Shown here: piece after piece, positions 45,256 to 62,497 of the stretch
Numbering within the stretch: the stretch's first letter is position 1
Layout of the letters: every line of letters begins with the position of its first letter
Assembly (NCBI GenBank): GCA_014729145.1
Contig: WJKL01000016.1
Coordinates: forward strand, 225-64,224
Length of the DNA: 64,000 nucleotides
Source of the DNA: Candidatus Woesearchaeota archaeon
GTDB taxonomy: Archaea; Nanobdellota; Nanobdellia; Woesearchaeales; WJKL01
Direction of reading: 5' to 3'
Translations under genes and position numbers: made by a program
Notes under the pieces: model-generated
What the model was told of the DNA's origin: nothing
Seen by the model: the letters and a program-made list of their open reading frames with translations, nothing else
Database searches by the model: none

Positions 45256-46065
45256 ATGATTGTTAAAGACGAATTTTTAAGCAAACTAAGAAGGTTTTTT
45301 GCTTTAAACTTATATGAGGTTAAGATATGGACTGCACTGCTTTCTCGAGGAGTTTCCACAGCAGGAGAGTTATCAGACATCGCAAATGTTCCGCGGAGCA
45401 GAAGCTACGATGTTCTTGAAAGCCTTGAGAAAAAAGGTTTTGTTGTAATGAAATTGGGAAAGCCAATAAAATATATCGCAGTACCTCCTTCAGAAGTTAT
45501 CGAAAGAGTCAAGAAAAATATGAAAGAAGAAGCTGACAAAAAAGTAAAGAAGCTTGAAGATTTAAAAGATACAGAGTTGCTTAATGAATTAAACACCTTA
45601 CATACACAAGGTATAGAATTGATAGAACCTACTGATCTAAGCGGCAGCCTTAAGGGCAGACATAATCTTTACAATCATCTGGAGTTAACCATCAGGAATG
45701 CAGAAGATGCAGTAACAATAATGACTACAGACAAAGGACTGATGAGAAAGATCGAGGGTCTTAAGCCTGTCTTTGAAAAACTGAACAAGAAAGGCGTCAA
45801 TATCAAGATAGCTGCACCAATCACAAAAGAAAACAAAAATTCTTTAAAGGATGTTGCGAGTTTGGTAGAGGTAAGGCACCTAAAGGATAAAGATCCTAAT
45901 GCCAGGTTCTGTGTGGTTGATAATAAAGATGTTATCTTTATGCTGATGGATGACAAAGAAGTCCATCCTACAAATGATACAGGAATTTGGGTTAAATCTC
46001 CTTTTTTTGCAAGTGCATTAACAGGCTTGTTTGACAACGCCTGGAAAGGTATGAAAAAACCATAA
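45256..46065 (+). CDS. TrmB-family transcriptional regulator (paralog 2)
   Basis: 269 aa. wHTH nearly identical to the ORF at 16835 (IWTALLSRGVSTAGELSDIANVPRSRSYDVLESLEKKGF) and the same C-terminal domain. Confidence 0.8.
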   Translation: MIVKDEFLSKLRRFFALNLYEVKIWTALLSRGVSTAGELSDIANVPRSRSYDVLESLEKKGFVVMKLGKPIKYIAVPPSEVIERVKKNMKEEADKKVKKLEDLKDTELLNELNTLHTQGIELIEPTDLSGSLKGRHNLYNHLELTIRNAEDAVTIMTTDKGLMRKIEGLKPVFEKLNKKGVNIKIAAPITKENKNSLKDVASLVEVRHLKDKDPNARFCVVDNKDVIFMLMDDKEVHPTNDTGIWVKSPFFASALTGLFDNAWKGMKKP

Positions 46066-49802: not shown

Positions 49803-50192
49803 TTACTTTTTAACTTGTTTTTTTGTTGGTTTAGCTGTTTTTTTTGAAGTCTTTTTCCTGGAAGATTTTTTTGGTTTTTCTTCAGATCCCTGTTTTTCCT
49901 TTTTCTTTCTCTGTTTTTTTGGGCGCTCTGCAGCTTTTTTTGGTTTTGTAGATCTTACTTCTATATCCAGTTTTTTCAAAGCTTTAGCTATATCTTCATG
50001 AGATGCCTTTTTCTTTATCTTGACTGTTTCTTTTAATGGTTCAAGATGCTTGATGCTGCAGTTTCTTCTTCTGGTTTCTCCATCTATCAAAACTGCATTG
50101 TCATCAATTATATCAACAACAACGCATTTTTTCCCAGCATCTCTTCCAGCAATTTTAACACATAATCTTCCAACTTTCAGCATTTTTATCAC
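49803..50192 (-). CDS. rpl14e: Ribosomal protein eL14 (L14e) with Lys-rich C-terminal tail
   Basis: KOW-like VGRLCVKIAGRDAGKKCVVVDIIDDNAVLIDGE...RRNCSIKHLEP. About 40-aa K-rich extension. Confidence 0.75.
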   Translation of the reverse strand: MIKMLKVGRLCVKIAGRDAGKKCVVVDIIDDNAVLIDGETRRRNCSIKHLEPLKETVKIKKKASHEDIAKALKKLDIEVRSTKPKKAAERPKKQRKKKEKQGSEEKPKKSSRKKTSKKTAKPTKKQVKK

Positions 50193-50244
50193 TTTATTAT
50201 TATCTTAACCAGTTCTATTATTGGTTTTAATATTGAAACTATGA

Positions 50245-50559
50245 TCATTTGGTCCTAGCACCCTTTACAATCTTTTTTCTCATGCAACCTGAACAAAGAT
50301 AACCACCATATGGCCTTTCAGGTCTTTTTGAGTTTTTGGGAGTGTTTTTCATCTTTGAAGGATGTTTTCTCAATGTTCCTGCCAGCTGTTTTCCACATTC
50401 AGCACATTTTGCTTTTGAAGGTTTTTTCTTCTTATAATGGATCTTGGTTCTTCCTCCAGGTGTTTTAATGTATTTTAGCTTTTTACTTCTGGATTTAAAC
50501 CTAGCATAACGTCCTTCTTTTTGAATTTTTTCCTTTGTTTTTCTTTTTGTTCCCGGCAT
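50245..50559 (-). CDS. rpl34e: Ribosomal protein eL34 (L34e)
   Basis: TPGGR motif and zinc-binding CAECG...CSGC. Confidence 0.75.
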   Translation of the reverse strand: MPGTKRKTKEKIQKEGRYARFKSRSKKLKYIKTPGGRTKIHYKKKKPSKAKCAECGKQLAGTLRKHPSKMKNTPKNSKRPERPYGGYLCSGCMRKKIVKGARTK

Positions 50560-50573
50560 TTTTATCAGTTATT

Positions 50574-51332
50574 TTAATGTATTTTTAATATTTTTCTTAA
50601 ACTCATACTAAATATAATCGAAAATATAATATATGTTCCTAACCATCCCCAGTTTTTAACCCAGGGGATTCCTGTGAATGAAAGAGGAGTGACTTTTTTA
50701 TTGTTAACAATTAATTGATTTAATTTGCCTTTATTTATAACTTTAACGGGTTCTTCATAGTCTTTTTGTTCAGTTATCAATATTTCCTTTTGGTAACTCT
50801 GGTTATGGTATTGATATTCTAGGATATAATTTCCTGTGGTTCCCTTCAATGTCCAGTTAACCTGGTTATCTGTTATCGGTTTTGTTGAGTTTCCAATTAT
50901 TTCAATCCCTTCAGGGGCAACCAAGCTTATATCTCCAGCAGCCCCTATATCAAAAAAAGCAGAGGTTGTAAATTCCTGGCCAGGATTGATAGGTTCATAT
51001 GCAAGATTTGCATTTAGCCAGCTGAATATGATTATGATAGGGATAAATGTTATCAGTGTGGGTTTTAGGGAATGCATCATATATTTCATATTTGTCTGCA
51101 TGGCTCTTTTTTGGACTTTCATGACTTCTTGAGGTTTGTCTTTAAGCTCTTTCATCTGTTTTTGAAAGTTCTTTATATCTTCTTTCAATTTTCTCATCAG
51201 ATGCTGGTCAGTCATCCATTTGTATATCAAAGTGATCAAAAGAGCAACAAGTAGTGAAATGAGCATTATTGCCCATAAAGAAGGCAATTTTAGCAGCGGT
51301 GAAAACACCGGATTAAGTATTGTTTCAAACAT
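50574..51332 (-). CDS. DUF106 membrane protein (archaeal Oxa1/YidC-superfamily, EMC3-like)
   Basis: 252 aa. Position between secY and rpl34e matches the conserved archaeal neighbourhood. TM1 then a coiled-coil segment (KLKEDIKNFQKQMKELK), then further TM helices. Confidence 0.5.
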   Translation of the reverse strand: MFETILNPVFSPLLKLPSLWAIMLISLLVALLITLIYKWMTDQHLMRKLKEDIKNFQKQMKELKDKPQEVMKVQKRAMQTNMKYMMHSLKPTLITFIPIIIIFSWLNANLAYEPINPGQEFTTSAFFDIGAAGDISLVAPEGIEIIGNSTKPITDNQVNWTLKGTTGNYILEYQYHNQSYQKEILITEQKDYEEPVKVINKGKLNQLIVNNKKVTPLSFTGIPWVKNWGWLGTYIIFSIIFSMSLRKILKIH

Positions 51333-51444
51333 TTTATCTGTTGTTTTTAATTTTTAAGCCTTTAATAAGCTTATGTTTCTTGAGTTGTTATGATTGTTAT
51401 GTTTTAAATTTATCTGTTTTTCTTATGAAAATTATCTACAAAAA

Positions 51445-52833
51445 TTATTCCATAAATTTCCTCATCATTGGGTGCATATCATACATGTGCTGTTTAGCGA
51501 TCTCTTCATACAATCTGTAAATGATCATGACCGCAAGCAATATTCCTGTTCCTCTGCTTAGTGCTCCTGAAAGATCTGCTATCGCAGCTATAAATCCCAC
51601 GGTGATAGCACCCATAACAGTCAAAGGCCAGATATATCTATTTAATAATCTTTCTAAAACTCTCTGATCACGCCTAAATCCAGGTATTTGTAAACCAGAC
51701 GACATAATTTTTTCTGCCTGGGATTTTGCATCCATCCCTGAAGTCTGCATCCAAAATATAGAAAACATGACTGCACCGCCTACCATAATAAGCATATAAA
51801 CTAAACCATGGGAAACATCGGCGAATGTAAGGCTGCCTTTTATCAATTTTCCAACTATATCTGGAGAAGCTAACCAAGCTACCAACCCTGTAGCAGGACT
51901 ATTTCCTACAAATGTTCCTAATATAGGGTGACCCCAATTTTGGAGCAGTCTTGCCCATAACTGTATATTGGCCATCAATGCAGCAATCAATATAACAGGA
52001 ATATTAGACGTGTATATAAAACTTAAAGGCCATCTTATTCCATGGCCACGAACCCTTCCAAAAGATAATGGAATCTCAACCTTCATGGCCTGTCCGTAAA
52101 CAGCAATACAAAAAACAAGTATGGTAGATATGACTGCTGCGATCATCAATGCTGCAGTTACAGGATCCCCTGCAGACAAAGACTGGAAAAGTGCAGGAAT
52201 CGCACCTGTAGCAATGTTTGGATTAGTAGGGGAGGCGAGCGGTGAAAGGGCTCTGATGAATATCTGTTCAGATACACCTGCTGCGATAAACAAGCTTATT
52301 CCAGAGCCAAATCCCCATTTTGAGATAATCTCATCCATAAATAATATAAGCATACCTCCAAGGAACAACTGAAATACCAACAAGGACTGAAGCTGGAAAT
52401 AAAGACCAGTTCCGACAAATTCCTGAGGAGGAGCAAGACCGCCCATAAAAACATAGATAGCTGCTTCAAATATGATAAAAAATATTGCCAGCAGTTTTTG
52501 GGTTCCCTGAAACCTCTTTTTTCCTTCTGGAGAGTTTAAGTCAAACTTAATCAGTCCTGAACCATTCAAAAGCTGCAACACAATAGATGCAGTAACAATT
52601 GGACCTATACCAAGCGAGATTATGGACCCGAATTTAGCTCCTAATATCAATGATAAGTATTCAAACTGCTGTAATGCATTAGCTCCAAGTCCAAATAAGG
52701 GGATTAATCCCAGGATAAAGAATATAATTAATGTAATCAAGGTCCATTTTAATTTTTCCTTAAAAGAAAGCCTTTTTTGTTCAGGACCCTTAACTTCAGG
52801 CAGATTAGCTAAGATAGAATCCCATAAACTCAT
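51445..52833 (-). CDS. secY: Preprotein translocase SecY
   Basis: 462 aa, 10 TM helices, conserved SecY blocks. Confidence 0.9.
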   Translation of the reverse strand: MSLWDSILANLPEVKGPEQKRLSFKEKLKWTLITLIIFFILGLIPLFGLGANALQQFEYLSLILGAKFGSIISLGIGPIVTASIVLQLLNGSGLIKFDLNSPEGKKRFQGTQKLLAIFFIIFEAAIYVFMGGLAPPQEFVGTGLYFQLQSLLVFQLFLGGMLILFMDEIISKWGFGSGISLFIAAGVSEQIFIRALSPLASPTNPNIATGAIPALFQSLSAGDPVTAALMIAAVISTILVFCIAVYGQAMKVEIPLSFGRVRGHGIRWPLSFIYTSNIPVILIAALMANIQLWARLLQNWGHPILGTFVGNSPATGLVAWLASPDIVGKLIKGSLTFADVSHGLVYMLIMVGGAVMFSIFWMQTSGMDAKSQAEKIMSSGLQIPGFRRDQRVLERLLNRYIWPLTVMGAITVGFIAAIADLSGALSRGTGILLAVMIIYRLYEEIAKQHMYDMHPMMRKFME

Positions 52834-53348
52834 TTTTCATTTTCCTCTTCCTGAGGTGTTTTTTCAGCAGTCTGTTTTTCTTCTTTTTTCTTAGGTTCAG
52901 ATTTTTCTGTTTCTATTGCTTCTCCTCCGGCGGCTTTTATCTTTTCAGCAGCTTTTTTGGAGAAAGACGGTGAAGTAATCCTGTATTTTTTAGTTAACCT
53001 TCCACTCCCTAAAACTTTGTTGAATCCAAGATCTTTAATATCAATCACATAAAAACCATCTTCTTTTTTTATCAGTTTTTTTGCCAACAATTTTTCAAGT
53101 TTCTCTTCAAAATAATTAAGATTTACAGCTTTTGTAGGTTTAGAAACTCCTTTTTTCTTAAAACCATGTTTCCCGAAATATTTTTGATTTTTCCATATAG
53201 ATGGTTTTTTAGCATCTCCTTTTTTTCCTGTACCAGCCATGCCTCTGCCTCCACGGTTGCCAGCTCCTCTTCTTTTTTTCATAGAGCCGCAGCCATGAGT
53301 TGTGCTTCCACGTCTTCTTGATTTTCTTTTTCTTTTATTAACTACCAT
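52830..53348 (-). CDS. rpl15: Ribosomal protein uL15 with C-terminal Lys/Glu-rich tail
   Basis: N-terminal RKSRRRGSTTHGCGSMKKRRGAGNRGGRG. Confidence 0.85.
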   Translation of the reverse strand: MVVNKRKRKSRRRGSTTHGCGSMKKRRGAGNRGGRGMAGTGKKGDAKKPSIWKNQKYFGKHGFKKKGVSKPTKAVNLNYFEEKLEKLLAKKLIKKEDGFYVIDIKDLGFNKVLGSGRLTKKYRITSPSFSKKAAEKIKAAGGEAIETEKSEPKKKEEKQTAEKTPQEEENEK

Positions 53349-53768
53349 TTAAATCATCTTCTTGATCAATTCATTGATCTTTTCTCCCCTATAACCTAGT
53401 GCTCCCCCTACTTTGAATGGAAGTTTTATCCCTTTTCTTTCAAATCCTTTTCTGGGAGGATGTAATCTAAATATCTTGGAATCCTTTTTTTCTCTTTTTT
53501 CTTTCAGCAATTTGAGGGTCTGTTCGTCAATCTCTCCCCAAGTGACAAAACCCTGCACTTTTTTGAGCATTCCAATGTTGCTTGGGCTAGCATATAATAC
53601 AACACAATTATTTTGTTTGTAAAGATTCATCATATGCAATGTATCTTTTGTTTCTTTTTTTACCTTAACAGAACCTCTGATCCTGACTACAGCTATCTTT
53701 TTGTATTCTTTTTTCTTTTCTGCAGTCTTTTTATCTGCTGTTTTTTGCCCTTGTTTTTCTTTTTCCAT
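53349..53768 (-). CDS. rpl30: Ribosomal protein uL30
   Basis: 139 aa. Ferredoxin-like uL30 core (IAVVRIRGSVKVKKE). Confidence 0.8.
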   Translation of the reverse strand: MEKEKQGQKTADKKTAEKKKEYKKIAVVRIRGSVKVKKETKDTLHMMNLYKQNNCVVLYASPSNIGMLKKVQGFVTWGEIDEQTLKLLKEKREKKDSKIFRLHPPRKGFERKGIKLPFKVGGALGYRGEKINELIKKMI

Positions 53769-53786
53769 TTTATTTATTTTTGTTGT

Positions 53787-54752
53787 TTATTCTTTTTTAT
53801 CTTTATTTTCTTCTTTTTCTTTTGTTTTCTGCTTTTCTTCTGATTTTTCTTCTTCAGTATGTTTTTCTGTTTCTTCCTTTTTAGATTTTTCTTCCTCTGG
53901 GATTATTTCTTTAAAATCTTCTGCAGAAGGCTCTTTTTCAGCTTTTATTTTTCCCTCTACAATTCCAAGGATAGAAGCATCATCAGCTTTTGTTCTTACA
54001 GTCATCAACCTTTTAAGGGCTTTGATGCATGCATAGATAAGGTTATATTTAGTCCCTGCCTTACCAAGTGTTTTTGACCATACATCTTTTATTCCAGCAA
54101 GTTCAAGGATTTTTCCACATTCATCTTCAATCTTTAATCCTGTTCCTTTTGGAGCAGGGAACAATTTCAGTATAACTGAACCGCATTTTCCTTCTACTTT
54201 ATAAGGTATAGTGTGGGGTTCTTTACACCCACACTGCCAGCTTCCACAGCCTCTTCTGATCTTAAATAAATTTAATTTTGCATTTCGGATGGATTTTTCC
54301 CTTGCAGGAACTGTTTCTTTGCTTTTTCCATAACCCAACCCAATATATCCGTTTTTGTTCCCAACAGCAGCAATAGTAGCAAACTTAGGTTTATTGCCTT
54401 CTCTGGTTTTCTTTTGAGTCTGCCTGAATATTCTTCTGCTTCCGCCTCCAAATTTACCTTTCGACTGGCCTACAAGCAAAAGCTCAACATCCAGATTAGG
54501 AACAAGGGTATCTATTATCTCTGCCTCAAGTATATTTGATGCATTGTCTAATATGCATTCAACATCATCTATCTCTCCTGATTTAACCTTTTTGCCTAAA
54601 TCAGTTTTAGGTTTCCAAGCATCTTTGTCAAATTCTTTGTTAAATCCTTTTCTGGACCTAGTCTGTCTTTTCTTCCTTTTTTTCTGTTTTCCAGGAACTG
54701 TCTCCTGTCCTTCTTTTTCTTTTTCTGGAAATTTCTTTTTTACTTTTGGCAT
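53787..54752 (-). CDS. rps5: Ribosomal protein uS5 with long Lys/Glu-rich N- and C-terminal extensions (321 aa)
   Basis: dsRBD plus S5 C-terminal domain (GYIGLGYGKSKETVPA...IPYKVEGKCGSV). Confidence 0.85.
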   Translation of the reverse strand: MPKVKKKFPEKEKEGQETVPGKQKKRKKRQTRSRKGFNKEFDKDAWKPKTDLGKKVKSGEIDDVECILDNASNILEAEIIDTLVPNLDVELLLVGQSKGKFGGGSRRIFRQTQKKTREGNKPKFATIAAVGNKNGYIGLGYGKSKETVPAREKSIRNAKLNLFKIRRGCGSWQCGCKEPHTIPYKVEGKCGSVILKLFPAPKGTGLKIEDECGKILELAGIKDVWSKTLGKAGTKYNLIYACIKALKRLMTVRTKADDASILGIVEGKIKAEKEPSAEDFKEIIPEEEKSKKEETEKHTEEEKSEEKQKTKEKEENKDKKE

Positions 54753-55273
54753 TATTCTTTCACCTTGATGTTGTTTTTGACTTCTTCAAATGTTTTAGTG
54801 ATTTCTGAAGATTTTTTATTGAACTTAGCTATATGTTCCCCTTTTATTCGTTCTTCTGAAGGAAATATATCTTTTTTATGGGGCACTTCAAGTCCAGCAT
54901 CTACAGCGCCTTTTAAGCAGGCAAATATTCTTGAGCCCCTAGTTGGATGGTTCAATCCTGTATCAAGGATAGCTTCTTTTACTCCAACCTCTACTGCTTT
55001 TTTACCAGCTAAAAGACCAGTCAGATAGGCTGCAGGTATGTTACTTTTATTATGCTTCCATCCTTTCTTTTCAAGTTCACGAGATGATGCATATGCAACG
55101 ATCTTGTCTCCTTTAGTCCGGTATTCAATTATCTGAGCAGTAATCCTGTTCAAAGAGGTTCTAATCACCAATCTTGGCTTTTCTGATTTTAGCATTTTAA
55201 GCCTTTTCTTATAATTGGTTTTTCCTTCTCTTTTTCTTCTCAGCGGAACATTGTATCTTTTTGAATTTGTCAT
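54752..55273 (-). CDS. rpl18: Ribosomal protein uL18
   Basis: 173 aa. Conserved uL18 blocks. Confidence 0.85.
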
Positions 55274-55288
55274 CTTGCATTAACCTTT

Positions 55289-55750
55289 TTATTTTTCTTT
55301 TGGTTTCTTTGCGAGCTTGTGCTCTTCTAGATATAATTTAATATGACGCTTGCTTCTGAAAAAGCCTCCTTTAGCTTTTTGATAAAGAGTATGATAGTTT
55401 TCTTTAGTTATGATCTCCTTATCTCTTAAATTTTTTAGGAAAGCCCTTTGCTTTCTTATCTTATTCATCCAGGACTTTTTTTTGGAAAGCCTTGATGTTT
55501 TTTTACCTTTTTTAGATCCAGGACCTTTTCTCTTTCCCTTTCTTTTCTGAATCTTTATCTTCCTTGCTCTGAATCTTGAATTTCCTTTTTTTGGTTTTTC
55601 TTTTATAGCTTTATCATTGATTAAGGATTTTATATCTAATTTAGTGATGGCTTCTTTGATGTCTTCAAGCCTATCTTGATTAAATATAATTCTGCTTTCT
55701 GAACATTTTAATATGTCTGCAGCAAGCCTTTTTTGTAGATTGAATTTCAT
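55289..55750 (-). CDS. rpl19e: Ribosomal protein eL19 (L19e)
   Basis: 153 aa. N-terminal MKFNLQKRLAADILKC. Confidence 0.8.
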   Translation of the reverse strand: MKFNLQKRLAADILKCSESRIIFNQDRLEDIKEAITKLDIKSLINDKAIKEKPKKGNSRFRARKIKIQKRKGKRKGPGSKKGKKTSRLSKKKSWMNKIRKQRAFLKNLRDKEIITKENYHTLYQKAKGGFFRSKRHIKLYLEEHKLAKKPKEK

Positions 55751-55751
55751 T

Positions 55752-56357
55752 TTATTTTTCCTTTTTTGTCAACACTTTATCCTTCTCTTTTTTCTTCATT
55801 TTTTGTTTTTCTTCTTCTGAGAGTTTTTCCAGCTTTGATTCCTCTTGTTTTTTCTTCTGTTTTCCCTTCTTTTTTTCTTTCTCTTTTTTCTTTTCTTTTT
55901 CTCTTAATTTTTGCTCTTTCTCTTGTTTTTTCTTCTTTCTCTCTTCATCTATTCTTTTAAGAAAATCTTCTGGATTTTTTATATTTATGATTTGAATACC
56001 TGCCTGCTGAGCTTTTTTTATTATATTGACCCTTTTTTTATCGCCTATCGAACTAGCAATTATAATTCCCTGCTCTTTTTTGTCTATTTGCTCTTTTAAT
56101 CTCTCCAGTCCAATTTCAGACGAGATTCTTATGGGTTTTAATCCTTTTTTAAGACCATATACTTCTTTTGGAGAGCCATACCCTGGAGTTACCATTTTTC
56201 TGTATCCCCTTTTTCCAAGCCTTATCTTTGACTGCCACCCTCTTGGTCTGTTCCACCTTTTTCTTATCCTTTTTCTTTTATGGGTGTCCTGACTAACAAA
56301 ACCAGGCTTTTTCGATTTTATCTTCTTTCTTAATTTTAACAGTTTATCTTTATCCAT
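55752..56357 (-). CDS. rpl32e: Ribosomal protein eL32 (L32e) with Lys/Glu-rich C-terminal tail
   Basis: RKRWNRPRGWQSKIRL...GYGSPKEVYGL core. About 70-aa tail. Confidence 0.8.
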   Translation of the reverse strand: MDKDKLLKLRKKIKSKKPGFVSQDTHKRKRIRKRWNRPRGWQSKIRLGKRGYRKMVTPGYGSPKEVYGLKKGLKPIRISSEIGLERLKEQIDKKEQGIIIASSIGDKKRVNIIKKAQQAGIQIINIKNPEDFLKRIDEERKKKKQEKEQKLREKEKKKEKEKKKGKQKKKQEESKLEKLSEEEKQKMKKKEKDKVLTKKEK

Positions 56358-56901
56358 TTTCTATATTCTTTTCTGATTTTGAAATGATATATATTCCATC
56401 CTGGAAAACTCTCCTATCTCTTCCGCTTATCTTACAGAGCCCTTCTATCGAAGCCGCAGTCTGTCCTGCAAGCTCTTTATCCGGACTTTTAACAGTGATT
56501 TCTTCTCCTTCGATCTTGACCTCAGCATTTTCTTTTATCTTTAATTTTCTGGGAACTTTTTCCCCCAAAAAATTCTGCAGGACAAATTCATTGTCCTTGA
56601 TCGAAGCAGTCATAGGAAAGTGAGTAGAGCATATCTTTAATTTATATATGTGATTTTCAGATGCTCCCTGTATAAGATTCCTCACATGGGATTTGAATGT
56701 TTCAATAATCTTTTTCTCTCTTTTTGTGCCTTTTTTTGCTGAAAATATGATATTTTTATCTTTGACCTCAATCTTGACTTTTGGATTGATCAGTTTTTTT
56801 GAAACCTCACCTTTGGGGCCTTTGACTTTTATCATGCCTTTATCTGTCTGAACTTCTATCTTTTCAGGAATTTCTATCTTTTCTTCGATATTTTGTTTCA
56901 T
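56350..56901 (-). CDS. rpl6: Ribosomal protein uL6
   Basis: 183 aa. Two-domain uL6. Confidence 0.85.
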   Translation of the reverse strand: MKQNIEEKIEIPEKIEVQTDKGMIKVKGPKGEVSKKLINPKVKIEVKDKNIIFSAKKGTKREKKIIETFKSHVRNLIQGASENHIYKLKICSTHFPMTASIKDNEFVLQNFLGEKVPRKLKIKENAEVKIEGEEITVKSPDKELAGQTAASIEGLCKISGRDRRVFQDGIYIISKSEKNIENG

Positions 56902-56941
56902 TTTGTTCTGATTTTAATCTGAATAATCATATTCTTTTTGT

Positions 56942-57331
56942 TTAATAACAATATGCCAGTAAAACTCCTCCACTTTCTTTTTTCAATGCATTTTCCTGGG
57001 TCATAATCCCATATGGTGTAGATACTATAAGGATACCAAAGCCTTTTGCAGGCAAATATTTCTGCTCAAATCTTTCAAAGCCATCTTTTTTAGACGAATA
57101 AGGTGGTCTTATCACTCCGCATTTGTTTATCTTTCCCAGCAGTTCTATTCTTACAGCTCCGCCTTTTCTTTTTTCAGTTTCCTTAATTTCTCCAATAAAT
57201 TTATTATCCTGCATGATTTTTAAGGTTTGCATTATAACCTTGGATACAGGTTTAACTGTACAGGAACTTCTACCTAATCTCTCAGCATTCATTATTTTTG
57301 ATAAAGCATTTGCAAGCGGGTTGTTTAACAT
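56942..57331 (-). CDS. rps8: Ribosomal protein uS8
   Basis: 129 aa. Conserved N-terminal LANALSKIMNAERLGR. Confidence 0.85.
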   Translation of the reverse strand: MLNNPLANALSKIMNAERLGRSSCTVKPVSKVIMQTLKIMQDNKFIGEIKETEKRKGGAVRIELLGKINKCGVIRPPYSSKKDGFERFEQKYLPAKGFGILIVSTPYGIMTQENALKKESGGVLLAYCY

Positions 57332-57340
57332 TTTCTCACC

Positions 57341-57571
57341 TTAGCTGTATTTTTTAAATCCTATTTTTGTTGCTATTTCCTTAAAGCATTGTCTGCAAAG
57401 ATCCAAGCCATATTTATTTATGTGGCCCCCTTTTCTTCCACATTTGCTGCATGTCTTTAGTGCTTTGCCACAGCTTCTTTTTTTAGGGGCATTATGCTTG
57501 ATAAATTTCTTTAATTTTGCAGGTTTTGATTTCAACTGTTTGAATACTTTTTTATGGCTGCTTGAACTCAT
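57341..57571 (-). CDS. rps14: Ribosomal protein uS14 (zinc-binding type) with N-terminal extension
   Basis: [30 protein letters not shown] zinc ribbon. Confidence 0.75.
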
Positions 57572-58083
57572 TCTTTTTCACCTATCTTTATATTGAATTT
57601 TTTGGACATAAAATCAATAGCTTCGTCTTTGGTTATATTGTGTTTTTTTGGTATTTTTTTCGTCTTGACTTTTCTTCTTTTAATCCTGAATCCTGGTCTT
57701 TCTAAAGTGACACATACTTCTAATCCAATTATTCCAATATCCGGGTCATATTTTATTCCAGGGATGTTAATATATTCAGGAACACCAAAAGCAAGATTTC
57801 CAGCTGCATTAAACTGTTTTGGAGACAAGACATTATCTCTTGCTTCAAGCAGTTTAGGAAGGATTTCCTCTGCTTTTTTCTTTCTGAGAGTCAGTTTACA
57901 TCCGATAGGAAGCCCAGGCCGTATGCCCCATCCAGGTATCCTTTTTTTTGCAGTGGTCTGGACAGGTTTTATACCTGTGATTATCTTAAGAAGTTTCATA
58001 CCTTTCTTTAGCTTATTTTGATCTTTTCCAGTACCTATATTTAAGGTAATTTTCTCTATCCTTATTTTTCTCATCGGATTCAT
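57568..58083 (-). CDS. rpl5: Ribosomal protein uL5
   Basis: 171 aa. Conserved uL5 core. Confidence 0.85.
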
Positions 58084-58085
58084 CT

Positions 58086-58790
58086 TTATTCAGGTAATTT
58101 AATTGATGGTTTTTCTTTTCCTATGACAAAGGCATATTTTTTTAAGGTCTCAAACTTCTTTTTTCCTCTTTTGTATATAATCAAGTTATCTTTTATATCT
58201 TCAACAGTTCCTGTCTCACCGATATGCTTTCCACCCGTAAGGTAGATGAATGCTTTTTTATCAAGCTTAAAAGAATCTTTTATCTTTTGAGAAGGAAGCT
58301 CAATCAAGACTGTGTCTCCCACACTGATGCTTTTTTCCTTGGATAAAATAATATTTTTTCCATCAAAAAGATTAAGCTGTATCTTACCTTTCTTTAATAC
58401 TTTTTTTCCTTTAACTTTACATGGTTTAATCTTGGATTCCTTGTTATCTATAGGGAAAGCGATTATCTTGCCTTTTTTATCAAACAAAATCCTAAAGTTT
58501 TCTTTTATCTTAGGCATGGATATCACATCCATAAGCCCCACAATAAAACGGTGATTCTTTCTTCTTACATGGTCCACAAATATTTCCTGATTATTAAGGA
58601 TATATCTTGTTTCTTTTGCTGTTCTAGTGTATTTTAATATGTTTCTGATTAGAAGGTTGATAGGCAGGCCTAGCTTAAATGGGTGAGGTCCAGGTAAAGG
58701 TCTGGTGACCCATTTTTTATCTTTTCTTTTTATCTTCCATGTTCTTGGCATTGCAAGCCTTGACAAATGTTTTTCTATTCTACTTCCCAT
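58086..58790 (-). CDS. rps4e: Ribosomal protein eS4 (S4e)
   Basis: 234 aa. N-terminal HLSRLAMPRTWKIKRK plus KOW. Confidence 0.85.
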   Translation of the reverse strand: MGSRIEKHLSRLAMPRTWKIKRKDKKWVTRPLPGPHPFKLGLPINLLIRNILKYTRTAKETRYILNNQEIFVDHVRRKNHRFIVGLMDVISMPKIKENFRILFDKKGKIIAFPIDNKESKIKPCKVKGKKVLKKGKIQLNLFDGKNIILSKEKSISVGDTVLIELPSQKIKDSFKLDKKAFIYLTGGKHIGETGTVEDIKDNLIIYKRGKKKFETLKKYAFVIGKEKPSIKLPE

Positions 58791-58795
58791 TCATA

Positions 58796-59182
58796 TCACT
58801 TCCGTTCTAATAATTTAGCTCTTTTTTTATCATTAAGATTTAATTCTGTAAGCATAAGATTTGAAGGTTCAAGGGGAGGAAATGCTTTAGTCCCATCTTT
58901 TTTTGACAGTTCAATCCCATCAATATAGATTTTTGATCTTTTCAGGTCAATCTTGTTTATCTTTCCTGTCTTTCCTTTAAAACTTCCTCTTAAAACCTTA
59001 ATTGAATCTCCTTTTTTAGCAGAACAGTTTCTTTTGCTGTATTTTTTCTTAAGCTCCTTTGATAATGTTACTGAAACAAAGTCATTTCTTATGTGCAATG
59101 GAGCATTGTACCTATATTTGTGCTGTTTTCTGGGGCTTTTGCTTTTTTTCCATGTTTTTGAAAATCTTTTTGTTTTTTTCAT
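58796..59182 (-). CDS. rpl24: Ribosomal protein uL24
   Basis: KOW motif (GDSIKVLRGSFKGKTGKI). Confidence 0.8.
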   Translation of the reverse strand: MKKTKRFSKTWKKSKSPRKQHKYRYNAPLHIRNDFVSVTLSKELKKKYSKRNCSAKKGDSIKVLRGSFKGKTGKINKIDLKRSKIYIDGIELSKKDGTKAFPPLEPSNLMLTELNLNDKKRAKLLERK

Positions 59183-59197
59183 CTTATTATTTTGATT

Positions 59198-59599
59198 TTA
59201 GACTATAATCTTTGCGAGTTTTGCTATTCCCGGCCATCTTTCACAGGCTTCCTTCGCAATCGGGCCTTTAAATATAGTTCCTTTAGGATTTCCCTGATCA
59301 TCCTTTAATACAACGGCAGCATTGTCTTCGAATTTTACTCTTGTGCCGTCAGGCCTTCTAAACTCTTTTTTTTGTCTTACAACAACAGCAGGAACTACCT
59401 GTTTTCTGATATCAGGACGGCCGCTTTTTACAGAAGCCATAATTAAATCTCCTACTCCCGCTCCCTGAACCCTGCCTTTTACAGTCTTGTGGCCCTTTAC
59501 ACTGAATATCTTGAGTATCTTAGCTCCTGAATTATCACATGTATCGATCTTTGAGCCTGCCTGCAGTGCTTTGGTAACTTTAGCTTTAACCGGCTGCAT
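59198..59599 (-). CDS. rpl14: Ribosomal protein uL14
   Basis: 133 aa. Highly conserved core (ADNSGAK...GDLIMASVK). Confidence 0.9.
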   Translation of the reverse strand: MQPVKAKVTKALQAGSKIDTCDNSGAKILKIFSVKGHKTVKGRVQGAGVGDLIMASVKSGRPDIRKQVVPAVVVRQKKEFRRPDGTRVKFEDNAAVVLKDDQGNPKGTIFKGPIAKEACERWPGIAKLAKIIV

Positions 59600-60126
59600 T
59601 ATTTTTCAGCCTCCTTTGAATCTTTAGCATCTTCTTTTGTTCCTTTCTCCTTCTTTTCTTTTGTTTTATTTGCTTCTTTTTCTTTAGGTTCGGTTTCTTT
59701 ATCTTCTTCTGTTTTATCTTTCTTTTTTGTCTCTTCAGGCGTTTCCTGCGGTTTTTTAATTTCGGGTTCTTCTGCTCCTTCTACTGTCGCTTCTTCTCTG
59801 GCAGCGAGCTCCTCTATAAAGCCTTTTTTCTTTCCCATATTTTCAACTATTACGAATTTTTTTGTTTTTGACAAAGGCCTTGTTTCCTGGACCTTCACAA
59901 TGTCACCAATATCTGCATCTAAGCATGAAGGATTATGGACATGTATCTTGGTTCTTCTTGTTTCACTTCTTTCATATTTTGGTATGACTACAGGATAAGA
60001 CCACTCAACTGTTGCTGTGTTATGGGTATCTTTAGCTAAAACTACCCCAGTAAAGCTCTTTCCTCTTAGTTTTATGTTCCCATGGAAAGGGCATTTTTTA
60101 TCTGTACATTGTTTTTCTTTTGCCAT
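59599..60126 (-). CDS. rps17: Ribosomal protein uS17 with about 65-aa Lys/Glu/Thr-rich C-terminal tail
   Basis: OB-fold core (FHGNIKLRGKSFTGVVLAKDTHNTATVEW). Tail shares 47 identical nt with the rps3 tail. Confidence 0.8.
   Translation of the reverse strand: MAKEKQCTDKKCPFHGNIKLRGKSFTGVVLAKDTHNTATVEWSYPVVIPKYERSETRRTKIHVHNPSCLDADIGDIVKVQETRPLSKTKKFVIVENMGKKKGFIEELAAREEATVEGAEEPEIKKPQETPEETKKKDKTEEDKETEPKEKEANKTKEKKEKGTKEDAKDSKEAEK
59689..59735. repeat. 47-nt stretch identical to 61045-61091 (the rps17 and rps3 3' coding tails)
   Basis: TTCGGTTTCTTTATCTTCTTCTGTTTTATCTTTCTTTTTTGTCTCTT appears in both places on the plus strand. It encodes the shared peptide KKKDKTEEDKETE in both proteins. Confidence 0.8.
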
Positions 60127-60145
60127 GTTTGTTCTTCCTCTTTAC

Positions 60146-60412
60146 CTAATTTTTTATCCTGTTTTTTGATTTTCCAAACAGCAGTTTTCCTTTTACGACT
60201 GCAGCCTGTTTTTTTGTCTTGATCTTTATGGTTATGTTATTTTTTAACAGTATTTTTCCTGAACCTTTTTTGTCTTGGATAACGATTGTATTTTTTGTAT
60301 CATCGATGATCTTTCCTTTGATGCCTATGTTATCCTTATTTTTCGAGTCTATTACTTCAACTTCTAGACCTATGATCTCAGACTTAATGAGATCCTTTAA
60401 ATCTGATTTCAT
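60146..60412 (-). CDS. RNase P protein component 1 (Rpp29, Sm-like)
   Basis: 88 aa. Position between SUI1/L29 and S17 is conserved in archaea. Sm-like pattern LIGLEVEVIDS...GIKGKIIDDTKNTIVI. Confidence 0.6.
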   Translation of the reverse strand: MKSDLKDLIKSEIIGLEVEVIDSKNKDNIGIKGKIIDDTKNTIVIQDKKGSGKILLKNNITIKIKTKKQAAVVKGKLLFGKSKNRIKN

Positions 60413-60438
60413 CCTGTTCTTTTTTGTTTTATCAAAGT

Positions 60439-60747
60439 TTATTTAACTTCAATTGCCTCTGGAGCAAAGCCGTATTGAACCAATCTTTCCTTTATATCTT
60501 TTCTGTGATCACCCTGGAGCTCAATCTTGCCGTCTTTTGCGGTTCCTCCGCAGGCAAACTTGGTCTTGAGGGTCTTTGCGAGATCTTTAAGGTCGATCTC
60601 TTTTTCGTCTATACCTCTAATCACTGTATTTATCTTGCCAAACGCTTTTTTAACCGTTTTCACAGTTATCTTTTGGCTCTCTTTTGCGATTGATTCACAA
60701 ACACATAGTTCTTTTGGCAGCCCACAGTCTGGACAAACTTCAGCCAT
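60439..60747 (-). CDS. Translation initiation factor SUI1 (aIF1)
   Basis: 102 aa. N-terminal Cys cluster (CPDCGLPKELCVC) plus SUI1 core (ITVKTVKKAFGKINTVIRGI...FACGGT). Confidence 0.75.
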   Translation of the reverse strand: MAEVCPDCGLPKELCVCESIAKESQKITVKTVKKAFGKINTVIRGIDEKEIDLKDLAKTLKTKFACGGTAKDGKIELQGDHRKDIKERLVQYGFAPEAIEVK

Positions 60748-61012
60748 TTATCTTTTCCTCTGTTTGTTTTTTTGTCTTTTTCATAGACTTTTTTGGTGTA
60801 TGCACAGAAGCCTCTTTTTTCTTAGCTTCTGTATTCACTATTGTTAAAATTCTAGCAATAGTTTTTTTTATTTCTCTGATTTGCCCTGGATTTTTTGGTG
60901 TAGTTCCAGTAGCAATTTGAGCATTATTTTTTATCATTTCTTTTCTGAGTTCATCTAGCTTTGAATTAAGTTCTTCCCTTCCCATTGAACGCAGATCTTT
61001 TATCTTAGTCAT
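60740..61012 (-). CDS. rpl29: Ribosomal protein uL29
   Basis: Helical uL29 core (LRSMGREELNSKLDELRKEM) with a C-terminal basic tail. Confidence 0.7.
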   Translation of the reverse strand: MTKIKDLRSMGREELNSKLDELRKEMIKNNAQIATGTTPKNPGQIREIKKTIARILTIVNTEAKKKEASVHTPKKSMKKTKKQTEEKING

Positions 61013-61014
61013 TT

Positions 61015-61809
61015 TTATTCGGTTTTTTCCTCCTCTTCTTCAGATTCGGTTTCTTTATCTTCTTCTGTTTTATCTTTCTTTTTTGTCTCTTTTTTGGTAT
61101 CTGTCTCTTTTTCTTTCTTTATTTTTTCTTCTGAGCTTTCTTTTTTAGTTTGTTTTTCAGTTTTCTTGTTTTCCTTGTCTTTTTTTTCAACTTCTTCAAT
61201 AACTTCTTCTTTTTCTTCATTTAATTCAATATGGTCTGGCAGTTTTGTGTCTGGAGGCATTATCCTGACCTGTATGCCTACAACACCTGATTTTAATTTA
61301 GCCTTAGCGTATGCTGCATCTACTCCTGATAAAGCAATATCTCCGCATTTTTTCAGATATCCCTGGTAGAATCTCCAGGATTTTGCCCTACTGCTTGGGA
61401 CCTTTCCTGAAATTATAATCTCAATACCTAATGCTCCTGCACCCATAACATCAGACATAACCTTGTGGCCTACTCCTTTAAACTTGCTTGAGCCAAATCT
61501 TTCCAAGGACGATGATATCCTTTCTGCAACTATGTTTGCGTCGAGATTTGGGTTTTCAACTTCTGCAATCTCTATCTGGGGATTTTCTAATTTGAATCTT
61601 TTTTTTAAATCTGATGTTAATTTTTGAATATTTTTACCTTCTCTTCCAACAACAAGCCCTGGCCGTGAAGCATAGACTATGATCTTTTCTCCAAGAGGGG
61701 TTCTCTGCATCTTTGTTTTTGAATGCCCTGCATTATTAAGATGATTGATTACAAAATTCTGAATCTCGAATTCTTTCTTTTTTTGTTTAACAAAATCTCT
61801 TTCTATCAT
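61015..61809 (-). CDS. rps3: Ribosomal protein uS3 with Lys/Glu-rich C-terminal tail
   Basis: KH domain (VGREGKNIQKLTSDLKKRF) and S3-C domain. About 60-aa tail. Confidence 0.85.
   Translation of the reverse strand: MIERDFVKQKKKEFEIQNFVINHLNNAGHSKTKMQRTPLGEKIIVYASRPGLVVGREGKNIQKLTSDLKKRFKLENPQIEIAEVENPNLDANIVAERISSSLERFGSSKFKGVGHKVMSDVMGAGALGIEIIISGKVPSSRAKSWRFYQGYLKKCGDIALSGVDAAYAKAKLKSGVVGIQVRIMPPDTKLPDHIELNEEKEEVIEEVEKKDKENKKTEKQTKKESSEEKIKKEKETDTKKETKKKDKTEEDKETESEEEEEKTE
61045..61091. repeat. Second copy of the 47-nt identical stretch (rps3 tail)
   Basis: See 59689-59735. Confidence 0.8.
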
Positions 61810-61819
61810 ATGGCTTCAC

Positions 61820-62497
61820 CTAGGATTTTTTATTGCCCTCTTGTTTTTTTGGTTCTTTCTTTTTTTTATCTTGATTATCTGTTTTTTCTTTTGACTGTTC
61901 TTTGTTCTGCTTTTTTTCTTCTGTTTTCTTCTTTAGTTCTTTTTGGGGTTCTTTTTTATCTCCTTCTTTTTCTTGGGTTTTGCTCTTTTGCTCTTTTTTA
62001 GGTTTTGTCTTTTCTTTTTTTGGCTGATTTTGATATCTTTTTTTAGTTTTTTTGCCTGCTTTTTCTTCAAGTATAATCTCTATGTGGGTTCTTTTCATGG
62101 TTCTTCCACGCATCCTTCCATAATGCGGCTGTTTTCTTGCTTTATGAGCACAGATGTGTTTGATTATTGTGCTGGAAGTATCAATGCCTTTAAATTGCGC
62201 ATTGGATTCTGCAGATTTTAAGACTCCAAGAATCTCTTTGCTTGCTTTTATCGGATAACTTCCTCCAGCAATGTTCCCTTTTTTGTGGGCAACTCCTCTG
62301 TTAAATTTCTTGAGAGGAACAGGCATCTTTTTCAGCATTATCTGGCTTAAGATGTCTTTTGCTTTCTGAAGATTCTTGAACCTAATCAAATTACAGATTT
62401 CAACTGATTTCTTTACTGAAATAGGAAGGGACATACCTTTTGCCCTAGCCATATGTTCAGCATCGAAATCCTTTGCTGCATATTTTTGATTTGCCAT
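61820..62497 (-). CDS. rpl22: Ribosomal protein uL22 with about 75-aa Lys/Glu-rich C-terminal tail
   Basis: Conserved uL22 core (AKGMSLPISVKKSVEICNLIRFKNLQKAKDIL...HKKG). Confidence 0.8.
   Translation of the reverse strand: MANQKYAAKDFDAEHMARAKGMSLPISVKKSVEICNLIRFKNLQKAKDILSQIMLKKMPVPLKKFNRGVAHKKGNIAGGSYPIKASKEILGVLKSAESNAQFKGIDTSSTIIKHICAHKARKQPHYGRMRGRTMKRTHIEIILEEKAGKKTKKRYQNQPKKEKTKPKKEQKSKTQEKEGDKKEPQKELKKKTEEKKQNKEQSKEKTDNQDKKKKEPKKQEGNKKS

What the first reader, a model, noticed from the sequence alone, without database searches (positions are those of the whole stretch)
49803..62497. Ribosomal proteins with long Lys/Glu/Thr-rich terminal extensions; the rps17 and rps3 tails share a 47-nt identical segment
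uS17, uS3, uL22, uS5, eL32, uL15, uL29 and eL14 are 20-75 aa longer than typical archaeal orthologues. The extra length is low-complexity K/E/T-rich tails (for example ETPEETKKKDKTEEDKETEPKEKEANKTKEKKEK). The tails of rps17 (59689-59735) and rps3 (61045-61091) contain an identical 47-nt stretch encoding the shared peptide KKKDKTEEDKETE. This implies recent gene conversion or duplication between tails of two different ribosomal protein genes. Such polycationic tails may compensate for rRNA reductions, as occurs in some small-genome lineages.
Basis: seen in the sequence. Interest (0 to 1): 0.5.

Follow-up and report, generated by a model that had tools for sequence, protein, structure and literature searches.

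The report
Charged tails on Woesearchaeota ribosomal proteins
Eight ribosomal proteins of this small-celled archaeon carry real, lineage-wide charged tails, and short pieces of these tails are occasionally copied from one ribosomal protein gene to another, an interesting but not revolutionary example of how ribosome surfaces evolve.

Summary
The window is a Candidatus Woesearchaeota contig. Its ribosomal operon encodes uS17, uS3, uL22, uS5, eL32, uL15, uL29 and eL14 with extensions of 25-77 aa relative to solved archaeal ribosomes.

The 47-nt identity (59689-59735 = 61045-61091) is exact. It lies far beyond chance: the shuffle null is 17±1.5 nt and the next-best real pair is 17 nt.

The tails are not artefacts:
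- Only the annotated frame is open.
- An independently assembled relative (L001) keeps all the tails.
- Tail dN/dS is 0.25, against 0.06 for the cores.

The tails are lineage-wide in Woesearchaeota/Nanoarchaeota. They occur at 29-58% GC, always on the same proteins. Large-subunit tails are always net basic.

The eL32 tail is not mere low complexity. It is a predicted 50-residue helix ending in a conserved motif, EKKEKDKvLTKK.

Tail-to-tail copying recurs. Two other Woesearchaeota genomes show private, in-phase identical segments of 33-64 nt between different protein pairs. Such matches occur in 4 of 1,263 within-genome pairs and 0 of 75,589 between-genome pairs.

The "polycationic tails compensate rRNA reduction" idea is not supported. 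The uS17 and uS3 tails are net acidic, and no rRNA could be examined.

C-terminal low-complexity regions in prokaryotic ribosomal proteins are already described in general, so this is a new member of a known kind.

The parts
59602..59829 (-). uS17 C-terminal extension (residues 100-175 of gene 59599-60126). It has a proximal conserved helix at about 103-117, then a disordered K/E/T/P-rich stretch. Net charge is -5.
   Evidence: Pfam S17 domain ends at residue 95. PDB uS17 chains end 8 residues after query residue 96. AF2 predicts helix 103-117 and pLDDT below 60 from residue 121 on. Charge.
59689..59735 (-). Copy 1 of the 47-nt identical segment, inside the uS17 tail (codons 131-146, ETKKKDKTEEDKETE).
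   Evidence: It coincides with a 33-42 nt insertion relative to L001 uS17.
61045..61091 (-). Copy 2 of the 47-nt identical segment, inside the uS3 tail, in the same codon phase.
   Evidence: It is absent from L001 uS3 and from 35 other uS3 relatives.
61018..61224 (-). uS3 C-terminal extension (residues 196-264 of gene 61015-61809). Net charge is -8.
   Evidence: All 120 listed relatives are 203-321 aa long.
61823..62062 (-). uL22 C-terminal extension (residues 146-225 of gene 61820-62497). Net charge is +19.
60743..60832 (-). uL29 C-terminal extension (residues 61-90 of gene 60740-61012). Net charge is +6.
55755..55982 (-). eL32 C-terminal extension (residues 126-201 of gene 55752-56357). It is predicted as a long helix (129-178) plus a second helix (181-198) carrying the conserved motif EKKEKDKVLTKKE. 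Net charge is +15.
   Evidence: core ends about residue 126; all 95 homologues are 180-258 aa. K189, E191 and L196 are nearly invariant; pLDDT is 92-97 over residues 121-170.
53790..53981 (-). uS5 C-terminal extension (residues 258-321 of gene 53787-54752). Net charge is -7.
54627..54752 (-). uS5 N-terminal basic extension (about residues 1-42). Net charge is about +11.
   Evidence: Query residue 43 aligns with residue 13 of the Pyrococcus chain.
52833..52916 (-). uL15 C-terminal extension (residues 145-172 of gene 52830-53348). Net charge is -3.
49806..49961 (-). eL14 C-terminal extension (residues 75-126 of gene 49803-50183). Net charge is +20.
   Evidence: Eukaryotic eL14 chains align into the tail, up to query residue about 118.
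53697..53768 (-). uL30 N-terminal K/E-rich 24 residues (gene 53349-53768). Net charge is +5. The whole protein is not longer than typical archaeal uL30.

Best explanation
SHOWN. These are genuine, translated terminal extensions of ribosomal proteins. They are a heritable trait of Woesearchaeota/Nanoarchaeota ribosomes. They sit on a fixed subset of proteins: eL32, uS3 and eL14 almost always, and uL22, uS17, uL29, uS5 and uL15 variably. They never occur on uL2, uS19, uL14, uL5, uS8, uL6 or uL30. Presence, approximate length and charge sign are kept, while the sequence turns over quickly through in-frame indels. Amino-acid composition drifts with genomic GC.

INFERRED (function). Selection acts mostly on bulk physical properties. 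Net-basic tails on large-subunit proteins lie along or neutralise the rRNA surface. Charge-balanced or acidic disordered tails on small-subunit proteins act as solvating, spacing bristles. eL32 is the exception: its tail is a rigid charged helical arm with a conserved terminal docking motif.

SHOWN (the 47-nt identity). It is a recent intragenomic copy between the uS3 and uS17 tails. It is one instance of a recurrent process in this lineage, in which 30-65 nt modules are copied in phase from one tail to another.

INFERRED (copy mechanism). The copy arises by short-patch ectopic gene conversion or by replication template switching, primed by microhomology in purine-rich tracts. Out-of-phase products are removed because the other frames contain stop codons. 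The copy is younger than roughly one fifth of the divergence from the nearest known relative.
For: Tails are coding:
- Each ORF is continuous and ends at or against the next gene's start.
- The two alternative frames of every tail contain 1-8 stops.
- L001, an independent Logan/NCBI assembly with dS about 0.7, keeps every tail in frame. Tail dN/dS is 0.25 against a core value of 0.06.

Lineage-wide:
- uS17 relatives are mostly 140-208 aa.
- uS3 relatives are 203-321 aa.
- eL32 relatives are 180-258 aa.
- In about 50 Woese/Nano genome loci, tails of at least 20 aa occur in eL32 97%, uS3 100%, eL14 100%, uL22 53%, uS17 53%, uL29 33%, uS5 31% and uL15 22%. They occur in 0% of eight other proteins. 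Methanogens have a baseline near 0, except for an acidic uS3 tail.

Not AT-bias driven:
- Total tail length is uncorrelated with GC (rho 0.19, p 0.29). A+P rises with GC (rho 0.80) and K+E falls (rho -0.51).

Charge sign:
- Net basic in uL22 25/25, uL29 16/16, eL14 10/10, eL32 38/38 and uL24 6/6.
- Balanced in uS17 (11 basic, 11 acidic); mostly acidic in uS5 (3 basic, 8 acidic).

eL32 arm.

Copying:
- The 47 nt is exact, against a null of 17±1.5.
- It is absent from both genes of L001 and from all other relatives.
- L065 uL22 and uL15 tails share 61 nt. L030 eL32 tail and uS5 N-extension share 64 nt. L030 uL22 and uL15 tails share 33 nt. All have sharp boundaries and the same codon phase.
- Exact matches of at least 27 nt occur in 4 of 1,263 within-genome non-orthologous tail pairs and in 0 of 75,589 between-genome pairs.
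- The sister genome L034 lacks the 17-aa insert in eL32, so eL32 is the recipient in L030.
Against: - No direct evidence (proteomics, cryo-EM) shows that the tails are retained in mature ribosomes.
- The functional reading rests on composition and sign conservation. These were not corrected for phylogenetic non-independence.
- Group assignment of some loci is approximate. L077 was probably mis-assigned.
- The direction of the uS3/uS17 transfer is unresolved. Relative to L001, each gene seems to hold part of the shared tract as ancestral, and alignments in low-complexity DNA at dS about 0.7 are unreliable.
- Only one assembly of this exact strain exists, so the 47-nt repeat lacks read-level confirmation.
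- AF2 helices in K/E-rich sequence can be over-confident.
Confidence: 0.65

Rival explanations
1. Neutral by-product. The tails are functionless low-complexity sequence. They are generated by A-rich mutational bias and replication slippage at solvent-exposed C-termini, and are merely tolerated. The 47-nt copy is one more neutral accident.
For: - Tail sequences are hypervariable, with many indels even between close relatives.
- dN/dS is four times higher than in the cores.
- Composition tracks GC.
- Weak short-period tandem arrays exist in the tails.
- Lengths of uL22, uS17, uL29, uS5 and uL15 tails range from 0 to over 100 aa among relatives.
Against: - Tail dN/dS is 0.25, well below 1.
- Total length is independent of GC, and tails persist at 50-58% GC.
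- In the window, enrichment is specific to ribosomal proteins.
- The charge sign of large-subunit tails is invariant.
- eL32 tail length and terminal motif, and the proximal helix of uS17, are conserved.
Confidence: 0.2
2. The tails are polycationic substitutes for rRNA segments lost in a reduced-genome lineage.
For: - Large-subunit tails are net basic in every relative.
- An Ala/Lys-rich C-terminal region of uS19 accompanies smaller rRNAs in CPR bacteria (PMC9297842).
- The Woese eL14 and uL22 tails align with the eukaryotic extensions of these proteins, which in eukaryotes contact rRNA (the rRNA contact is from general knowledge).
Against: - The uS17, uS3, uS5 C-terminal and uL15 tails are net acidic, so they cannot replace rRNA-neutralising or rRNA-mimicking functions in a simple way.
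- No rRNA was available.
- No report of reduced rRNA in Woesearchaeota was found.
Confidence: 0.12
3. Artefact. Either the stop or start calls are wrong, or the 47-nt identity comes from an assembly error such as a collapsed or chimeric repeat.
For: - Only one assembly of this strain is on record.
- The sequence is low-complexity, which can confuse assemblers.
Against: - There are no earlier in-frame stops, and the other frames are closed.
- Gene order and flanks on both sides of both copies are collinear with L001, so there is no chimeric join.
- 47 nt is shorter than typical reads.
- Analogous segments occur in two other MAGs from other studies, and one of them (L030, 64 nt) is not low-complexity.
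Confidence: 0.03

Closest known systems
C-terminal low-complexity regions of prokaryotic ribosomal proteins (Ntountoumi et al. 2019, PMC6821194)
   Same: These are A/E/K-rich low-complexity regions, mostly at the C-terminus of ribosomal proteins. Archaeal uS3 is one of the recurrent carriers. Acidic uS3 tails are also seen here in methanogen loci.
   Different: Here eight proteins of one operon carry tails at once, totalling 423 aa on seven proteins. That is the second highest of 34 compared genomes. The set includes eL32, eL14, uL22 and uS17, which that survey does not list as recurrent carriers. The lineage (DPANN) was not in that data set of 102 archaeal genera, as far as the text read shows.
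Eukaryote-specific extensions of ribosomal proteins (eL14, uL22, uS5 and others)
   Same: The extensions sit on the same proteins and at the same termini. Eukaryotic eL14 and uL22 chains align into the Woese tails. Eukaryotic uS5 aligns further into the N-extension than archaeal chains do.
   Different: The alignments are weak and driven by composition, so homology is not shown. eL32 and uS17 C-tails have no eukaryotic counterpart in the PDB hits. Eukaryotic extensions are sequence-conserved and contact expansion segments, whereas these tails are mostly hypervariable.
Ala/Lys-rich C-terminal region of uS19 in Parcubacteria (CPR bacteria; Tsurumaki et al. 2022, PMC9297842)
   Same: It is a lineage-specific charged C-terminal addition to a ribosomal protein in an ultra-small, reduced-genome lineage.
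   Different: It concerns a different domain of life and a different protein. uS19 has no tail in any locus here. It is a single protein rather than a set, and no tail-to-tail copying was reported.
Charged single alpha-helices (ER/K or SAH domains, as in myosin VI/X and caldesmon; from general knowledge)
   Same: The eL32 tail is E/K/R-rich with few hydrophobic residues. It is predicted as one uninterrupted 50-residue helix with high confidence.
   Different: This is a prediction only, with no biophysical data. The helix is attached to a ribosomal protein and followed by a conserved terminal motif.
Ectopic (non-allelic) gene conversion or duplicative insertion between repetitive coding tracts (from general knowledge)
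   Same: The tracts are short and identical with sharp boundaries. They lie between non-homologous genes on the same strand, are private to single genomes, and are absent from sister genomes.
   Different: Donor and recipient are tails of different essential ribosomal protein genes within one operon. The phase is preserved in 4 of 4 events. I found no description of this for ribosomal proteins in the papers searched.

Membership tests
Universal and archaeal ribosomal protein families uS17, uS3, uL22, uS5, eL32, uL15, uL29, eL14 | A significant match to the family domain model, and position in the conserved S10-spc-type operon. | tested here: met
   Pfam hits lie above the curated cut-offs (eL14 through KOW, plus PDB eL14 chains). 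Operon order is identical to L001.
C-terminal low-complexity regions of prokaryotic ribosomal proteins | A compositionally biased (A/E/K-type) segment at the terminus, outside the folded domain. | tested here: met
   Tails are 41-60% charged residues and lie beyond the domain ends. The uS17 tail is predicted disordered.
Eukaryote-type ribosomal protein extensions | Sequence homology of the extension to the eukaryotic segment. | tested here: inconclusive
   phmmer alignments of eukaryotic eL14 and uL22 run into the tails, but overall E-values are only 1e-6 to 1e-18 and are dominated by the core. The tails are compositionally biased.
Eukaryote-type ribosomal protein extensions | The extension contacts rRNA expansion segments. 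| not testable with these tools
   No rRNA from this genome or its relatives was available.
Single alpha-helix (ER/K) domain, for the eL32 tail | A long uninterrupted helix rich in E, K and R without a hydrophobic seam. | tested here: met
   AF2 helix 129-178, pLDDT 92-97 over residues 121-170. The sequence has very few hydrophobic residues. This is a prediction only.
Single alpha-helix (ER/K) domain, for the eL32 tail | Monomeric helicity in solution. | not testable with these tools
   This needs circular dichroism, NMR or SAXS on the peptide.
Ectopic gene conversion or duplicative copy | An identical tract well beyond chance between non-orthologous sites in one genome. | tested here: met
   47 nt against a null of 17±1.5. 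Within-genome matches are in excess: 4 of 1,263 against 0 of 75,589.
Ectopic gene conversion or duplicative copy | The tract is absent from the orthologous sites of sister genomes, meaning it is derived and recent. | tested here: met
   It is absent from L001 uS17 and uS3 and from other relatives. L034 lacks the L030 eL32 insert.
Ectopic gene conversion or duplicative copy | An identifiable donor and recipient. | tested here: inconclusive
   For the window pair the direction is unresolved. For L030, eL32 is the recipient.
Assembly artefact (collapsed or chimeric repeat) | A break in synteny or a switch of flanks at the repeat. | tested here: not met
   Both copies are flanked on both sides by the expected gene sequence, collinear with L001.
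Tandem-repeat (slippage) expansion as the source of the tails | Head-to-tail arrays of a unit within the tail. | tested here: inconclusive
   Only weak arrays of low copy number, with scores of 30-78 and 62-100% matches. A clear 49-nt tandem copy was seen only in L019 uS3.

The most novel reading that the evidence does not exclude
Woesearchaeota and Nanoarchaeota ribosomes carry a lineage-specific, selected protein 'coat'. It consists of basic arms on the large subunit, ampholytic bristles on the small subunit, and a conserved rigid eL32 helical arm of about 75 Å with a docking motif. This coat would be functionally analogous to eukaryotic extensions and expansion segments, for example a new bridge, factor or partner-binding site, or a compensation for lost assembly factors. 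The tails would diversify by a previously undescribed mode: in-phase shuffling of modules between tails of different ribosomal protein genes.
Probability: 0.2. Interest if true: 0.6.

Novelty: new member of a known kind. Interest (0 to 1): 0.4.

Why it matters
Ribosomal protein extensions are one of the main ways ribosomes differ between lineages. In eukaryotes they co-evolved with rRNA expansion segments. DPANN archaea have no solved ribosome structure.

If the tails are retained, Woesearchaeota ribosomes carry more than 400 extra, mostly charged residues on their surface. These include a conserved eL32 helical arm that would be a concrete target for cryo-EM or cryo-ET.

The recurrent in-phase copying between tails of different essential genes gives a simple, checkable example of how disordered regions can spread and homogenise within one molecular machine.

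There is also a practical consequence. The hypervariable tails should be trimmed from ribosomal protein alignments used for DPANN phylogeny.

Tried and rejected
- An exact look-up of the window uS17 in the contig index returned nothing, so no second assembly of the strain could be examined.
- A scan of JGI metagenomes for a 30-nt core of the repeat found nothing. Whether the segment occurs elsewhere in the genome or in related populations therefore remains unknown.
The source genome was not among the 80 loci returned (best 63% identity).
- Rfam and tRNA scans of the window were empty. There is no rRNA to test the rRNA-reduction idea, and no RNA element explains the repeat.
- Literature searches for Woesearchaeota or DPANN ribosomal protein tails, or for reduced rRNA, found nothing specific.
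- Tandem-repeat analysis gave only weak arrays. I therefore rejected simple slippage as the sole origin of the 47-nt identity.
- A first version of the within- versus between-genome comparison was contaminated. Stop-to-stop 'N-extensions' physically overlapped the upstream gene's tail. It was redone with start-codon trimming and an overlap filter.
- Polarising the uS3/uS17 transfer with L001 was inconclusive.
- I considered that open reading frames in purine-rich DNA might be open in all frames. This was rejected because the other frames carry 1-8 stops.

Full report
**What the region is.** The window comes from a Candidatus Woesearchaeota contig. Its uS17 and uS3 are 100% identical to NCBI proteins on a 64,625-bp contig. 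Positions 49.8-64 kb on the minus strand hold the archaeal S10-spc-type operon. The gene order is uL23, uL2, uS19, uL22, uS3, uL29, SUI1, Rpp29, uS17, uL14, uL24, eS4, uL5, uS14, uS8, uL6, eL32, eL19, uL18, uS5, uL30, uL15, SecY, an EMC3/DUF106-like protein, eL34 and eL14. GC is about 34% and the coding strand is strongly A-rich. The window has no rRNA, no tRNA and no Rfam family.

**Checking the observation.** I measured the extensions against chains of solved archaeal ribosomes.
- uS17: about 71 aa.
- uS3: about 55 aa.
- eL32: about 72 aa.
- uL22: about 77 aa.
- eL14: about 50 aa.
- uS5: about 44 aa at the C-terminus and about 30 aa at the N-terminus.
- uL15: about 25 aa.
- uL29: about 20-25 aa relative to methanogen loci.

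The 47-nt identity is exact at the stated coordinates. It is the longest exact repeat in the window. It lies in the same codon phase in both genes and encodes ETKKKDKTEEDKETE. In 300 codon shuffles of all tails, the longest shared substring was 17.0±1.5 nt (maximum 21). The next-best real pair shares 17 nt.

**Are the tails real coding sequence?**
- Each ORF runs without an earlier stop to within a few bases of the next gene's start.
- The other two frames of every tail contain 1-8 stop codons.
- The closest relative found is L001, a Logan/NCBI assembly from another sample. Its cores are 92-98% identical in protein, and dS is about 0.7. It keeps all the tails in frame, although their lengths differ through many codon-multiple indels.
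- Over aligned codons, dN/dS is 0.06 for cores and 0.25 for tails. This is relaxed but still purifying selection.

In the window, K/E-rich segments are concentrated in ribosomal proteins: 8 of 22, against 1 of about 48 other ORFs (p=2e-4).

**Lineage distribution.** Protein searches show the extra length is the rule among relatives. uS17 is mostly 140-208 aa. uS3 is 203-321 aa. eL32 is 180-258 aa in all 95 hits.

I fetched 80 genome loci around uS17. For every operon protein I measured how far the ORF runs beyond the window-defined core. Loci were grouped by record label or nearest labelled neighbour.

In about 50 Woesearchaeota/Nanoarchaeota loci, tails of at least 20 aa occur as follows:

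| Protein | Loci with tail ≥20 aa | Median length |
|---|---|---|
| eL32 | 97% | 73 aa |
| uS3 | 100% | 57 aa |
| eL14 | 100% | not recorded here |
| uL22 | 53% | not recorded here |
| uS17 | 53% | not recorded here |
| uL29 | 33% | not recorded here |
| uS5 | 31% | not recorded here |
| uL15 | 22% | not recorded here |

Tails were never seen on uL2, uS19, uL14, uL5, uS8, uL6, uL30 or SecY. Methanogens sit near zero, except for a strongly acidic uS3 tail. The window is therefore a high-end example of a lineage-wide trait. Its seven tails total 423 aa, second among 34 genomes.

**Mutational bias or selection?** Total tail length does not correlate with GC (rho 0.19, p 0.29). Tails persist in relatives with 50-58% GC. 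There they become A/P/Q-rich instead of K/E/T-rich (A+P against GC, rho 0.80; K+E, rho -0.51).

Charge sign is protein-specific and stable. Large-subunit tails are net basic in every relative: uL22 25/25, uL29 16/16, eL14 10/10, eL32 38/38 and uL24 6/6. Small-subunit tails are balanced or acidic: uS17 has 11 basic and 11 acidic, uS5 has 3 basic and 8 acidic, and uS3 is mixed. These counts are not corrected for shared ancestry.

In the window, uS17 (-5), uS3 (-8), the uS5 C-tail (-7) and uL15 (-3) are net acidic. "Polycationic" is therefore wrong for half the set, including both partners of the 47-nt repeat.

**Not all tails are featureless.** The eL32 extension has a conserved length and a conserved terminal motif, SEEEKK...EKKEKDK[VIL]LTKK. 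K189, E191 and L196 are nearly invariant across 64 sequences. AlphaFold2, run with that alignment, predicts a 50-residue helix (129-178, pLDDT 92-97 over residues 121-170) followed by a second helix carrying the motif. This looks like a charged single-helix arm.

uS17 has a conserved proximal helix (residues 103-117, the GF-x-E-x-L/M-x-A-R-E motif). After it comes a predicted disordered stretch that contains the shared segment.

**The 47-nt identity in context.** The shared peptide is absent from uS17 and uS3 of L001 and from all other relatives examined. In uS17 it coincides with a 33-42 nt insertion relative to L001.

From the tail divergence between the window and L001, about 14 differences would be expected over 47 nt if the copies were as old as that split. 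None is seen. By inference, the copy is younger than roughly one fifth of that divergence.

The direction of transfer could not be resolved. Relative to L001, each gene appears to hold part of the tract as ancestral, and low-complexity alignments at this distance are unreliable.

**The phenomenon recurs.** I scanned all fetched loci for exact repeats. Two other Woesearchaeota MAGs from other studies have the same kind of feature between other protein pairs.
- L065: the uL22 and uL15 tails share 61 nt (peptide KPEVKKQDIKTEQSQEIKK).
- L030: the eL32 tail and the uS5 N-extension share 64 nt of non-low-complexity sequence (peptide DEMSETKVSEHIQKSSIPNKT).
- L030: the uL22 and uL15 tails also share 33 nt.

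All have sharp boundaries and the same codon phase. After removing physically overlapping segments, exact matches of at least 27 nt occur in 4 of 1,263 within-genome non-orthologous tail pairs. They occur in 0 of 75,589 between-genome pairs. L034, the sister of L030, lacks the 17-aa insert in eL32, so eL32 was the recipient there.

This supports a recurrent intragenomic copy process. It argues against convergence and against assembly error. In addition, both window copies have the expected flanks, collinear with L001.

**Mechanism.** The following points are shown:
- The tails are coding and lineage-wide.
- They are restricted to particular proteins.
- Their charge sign is conserved.
- The copies are recent, in phase and within one genome.

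The following points are inferred. The tailed termini are solvent-exposed, and selection keeps bulk properties rather than sequence. Basic large-subunit tails probably lie on rRNA. Ampholytic small-subunit tails probably act as solvated bristles. The eL32 arm probably docks through its terminal motif. Copies probably arise by short-patch ectopic conversion or template switching at microhomologies in purine-rich tracts. Out-of-phase products are eliminated because the other frames contain stops.

I put 0.65 on this package. The descriptive part is near-certain and the functional part is much less so. Rivals are a purely neutral by-product (0.2), compensation for rRNA reduction (0.12, untestable here) and artefact (0.03).

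**Comparison with what is known.** C-terminal A/E/K-rich low-complexity regions in prokaryotic ribosomal proteins have been described in general. Archaeal uS3 is among the recurrent carriers (PMC6821194). CPR bacteria have an Ala/Lys-rich uS19 tail (PMC9297842). Eukaryotic eL14, uL22 and uS5 carry extensions at the same termini, and their chains align weakly into the Woese tails.

I found no description of the Woesearchaeota set, of the conserved eL32 arm, or of tail-to-tail copying. The library searched is incomplete, so this is not proof of absence.

**Verdict.** This is a new member of a known kind. It has two modestly novel details: the conserved eL32 helical extension and the recurrent in-phase module copying between tails. 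Interest is 0.4.

Noticed in passing
window 2365-7413 (+): An MCM helicase gene of 1,682 aa is interrupted by intein splicing and LAGLIDADG endonuclease domains. There are two Intein_splicing and two LAGLIDADG_3 stretches.
   Followed up: no
window 22045-23193 (+): A 382-aa ORF with no Pfam match. It is the only non-ribosomal ORF in the window with a strongly K/E-rich segment (19 of 25 residues, around residue 202). It contains an internal 26-nt exact repeat at 22686/22761.
   Followed up: partly
window 16835-17653 (+) and 45256-46065 (+): Two TrmB-family regulator paralogues share a 244-nt stretch at 73% identity.
   Followed up: no
window 21427-22005 (+): A tRNA-splicing endonuclease with a lysine-rich N-terminal extension of about 21 aa (MAKKTKKSKKKEKSTKRRKK). 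Charged termini are therefore not strictly confined to ribosomal proteins.
   Followed up: no
loci L004, L007, L009, L011, L012, L014, L025, L027, L046 and others (uS3 C-termini): Many Woesearchaeota, Nanoarchaeota and Aenigmatarchaeota uS3 tails end in a conserved motif. Examples are ...ESEGTKADE...ESQGTKSDE...NGDNKKE and ...ENVDNKEE. The window and L001 lack it.
   Followed up: no
L013:15911 and 16023; L030:7978 and 8080: Short exact duplications at gene boundaries. One is 33 nt, shared by the SecY 3' end and the start of the EMC3-like gene. The other is 34 nt, containing a ribosome-binding site and start codon, duplicated about 100 nt upstream of uS19.
   Followed up: no
L019:8973-9130 (uS3 tail): In-tail tandem copies of a 49-nt exact unit, spaced 108 nt apart, encoding AGDKELTEDAPSKEDV. 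The record is labelled as a 'Methanobacteriota' MAG. This is a clear case of tail growth by tandem duplication.
   Followed up: no
loci L005, L008-L010, L012, L013, L020, L034, L043, L048, L056, L059, L062, L072, L077: These records are titled 'uncultured Methanosarcinales archaeon' (binchicken and SRP co-assemblies). By ribosomal protein identity they cluster with Woesearchaeota/Nanoarchaeota, and they carry the same tails. The record labels look wrong.
   Followed up: partly
L055, L060, L064, L071, L078, L081 (Methanobrevibacter) and L052, L069, L076: uS3 of Methanobacteriales and Methanosarcinaceae carries a 48-168 aa, extremely acidic C-terminal tail. Net charge is about -30 in Methanobrevibacter.
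   Followed up: no
window 9972-15076 (-): The PolD large (DP2) and small (DP1) subunit genes are adjacent to each other.
   Followed up: no
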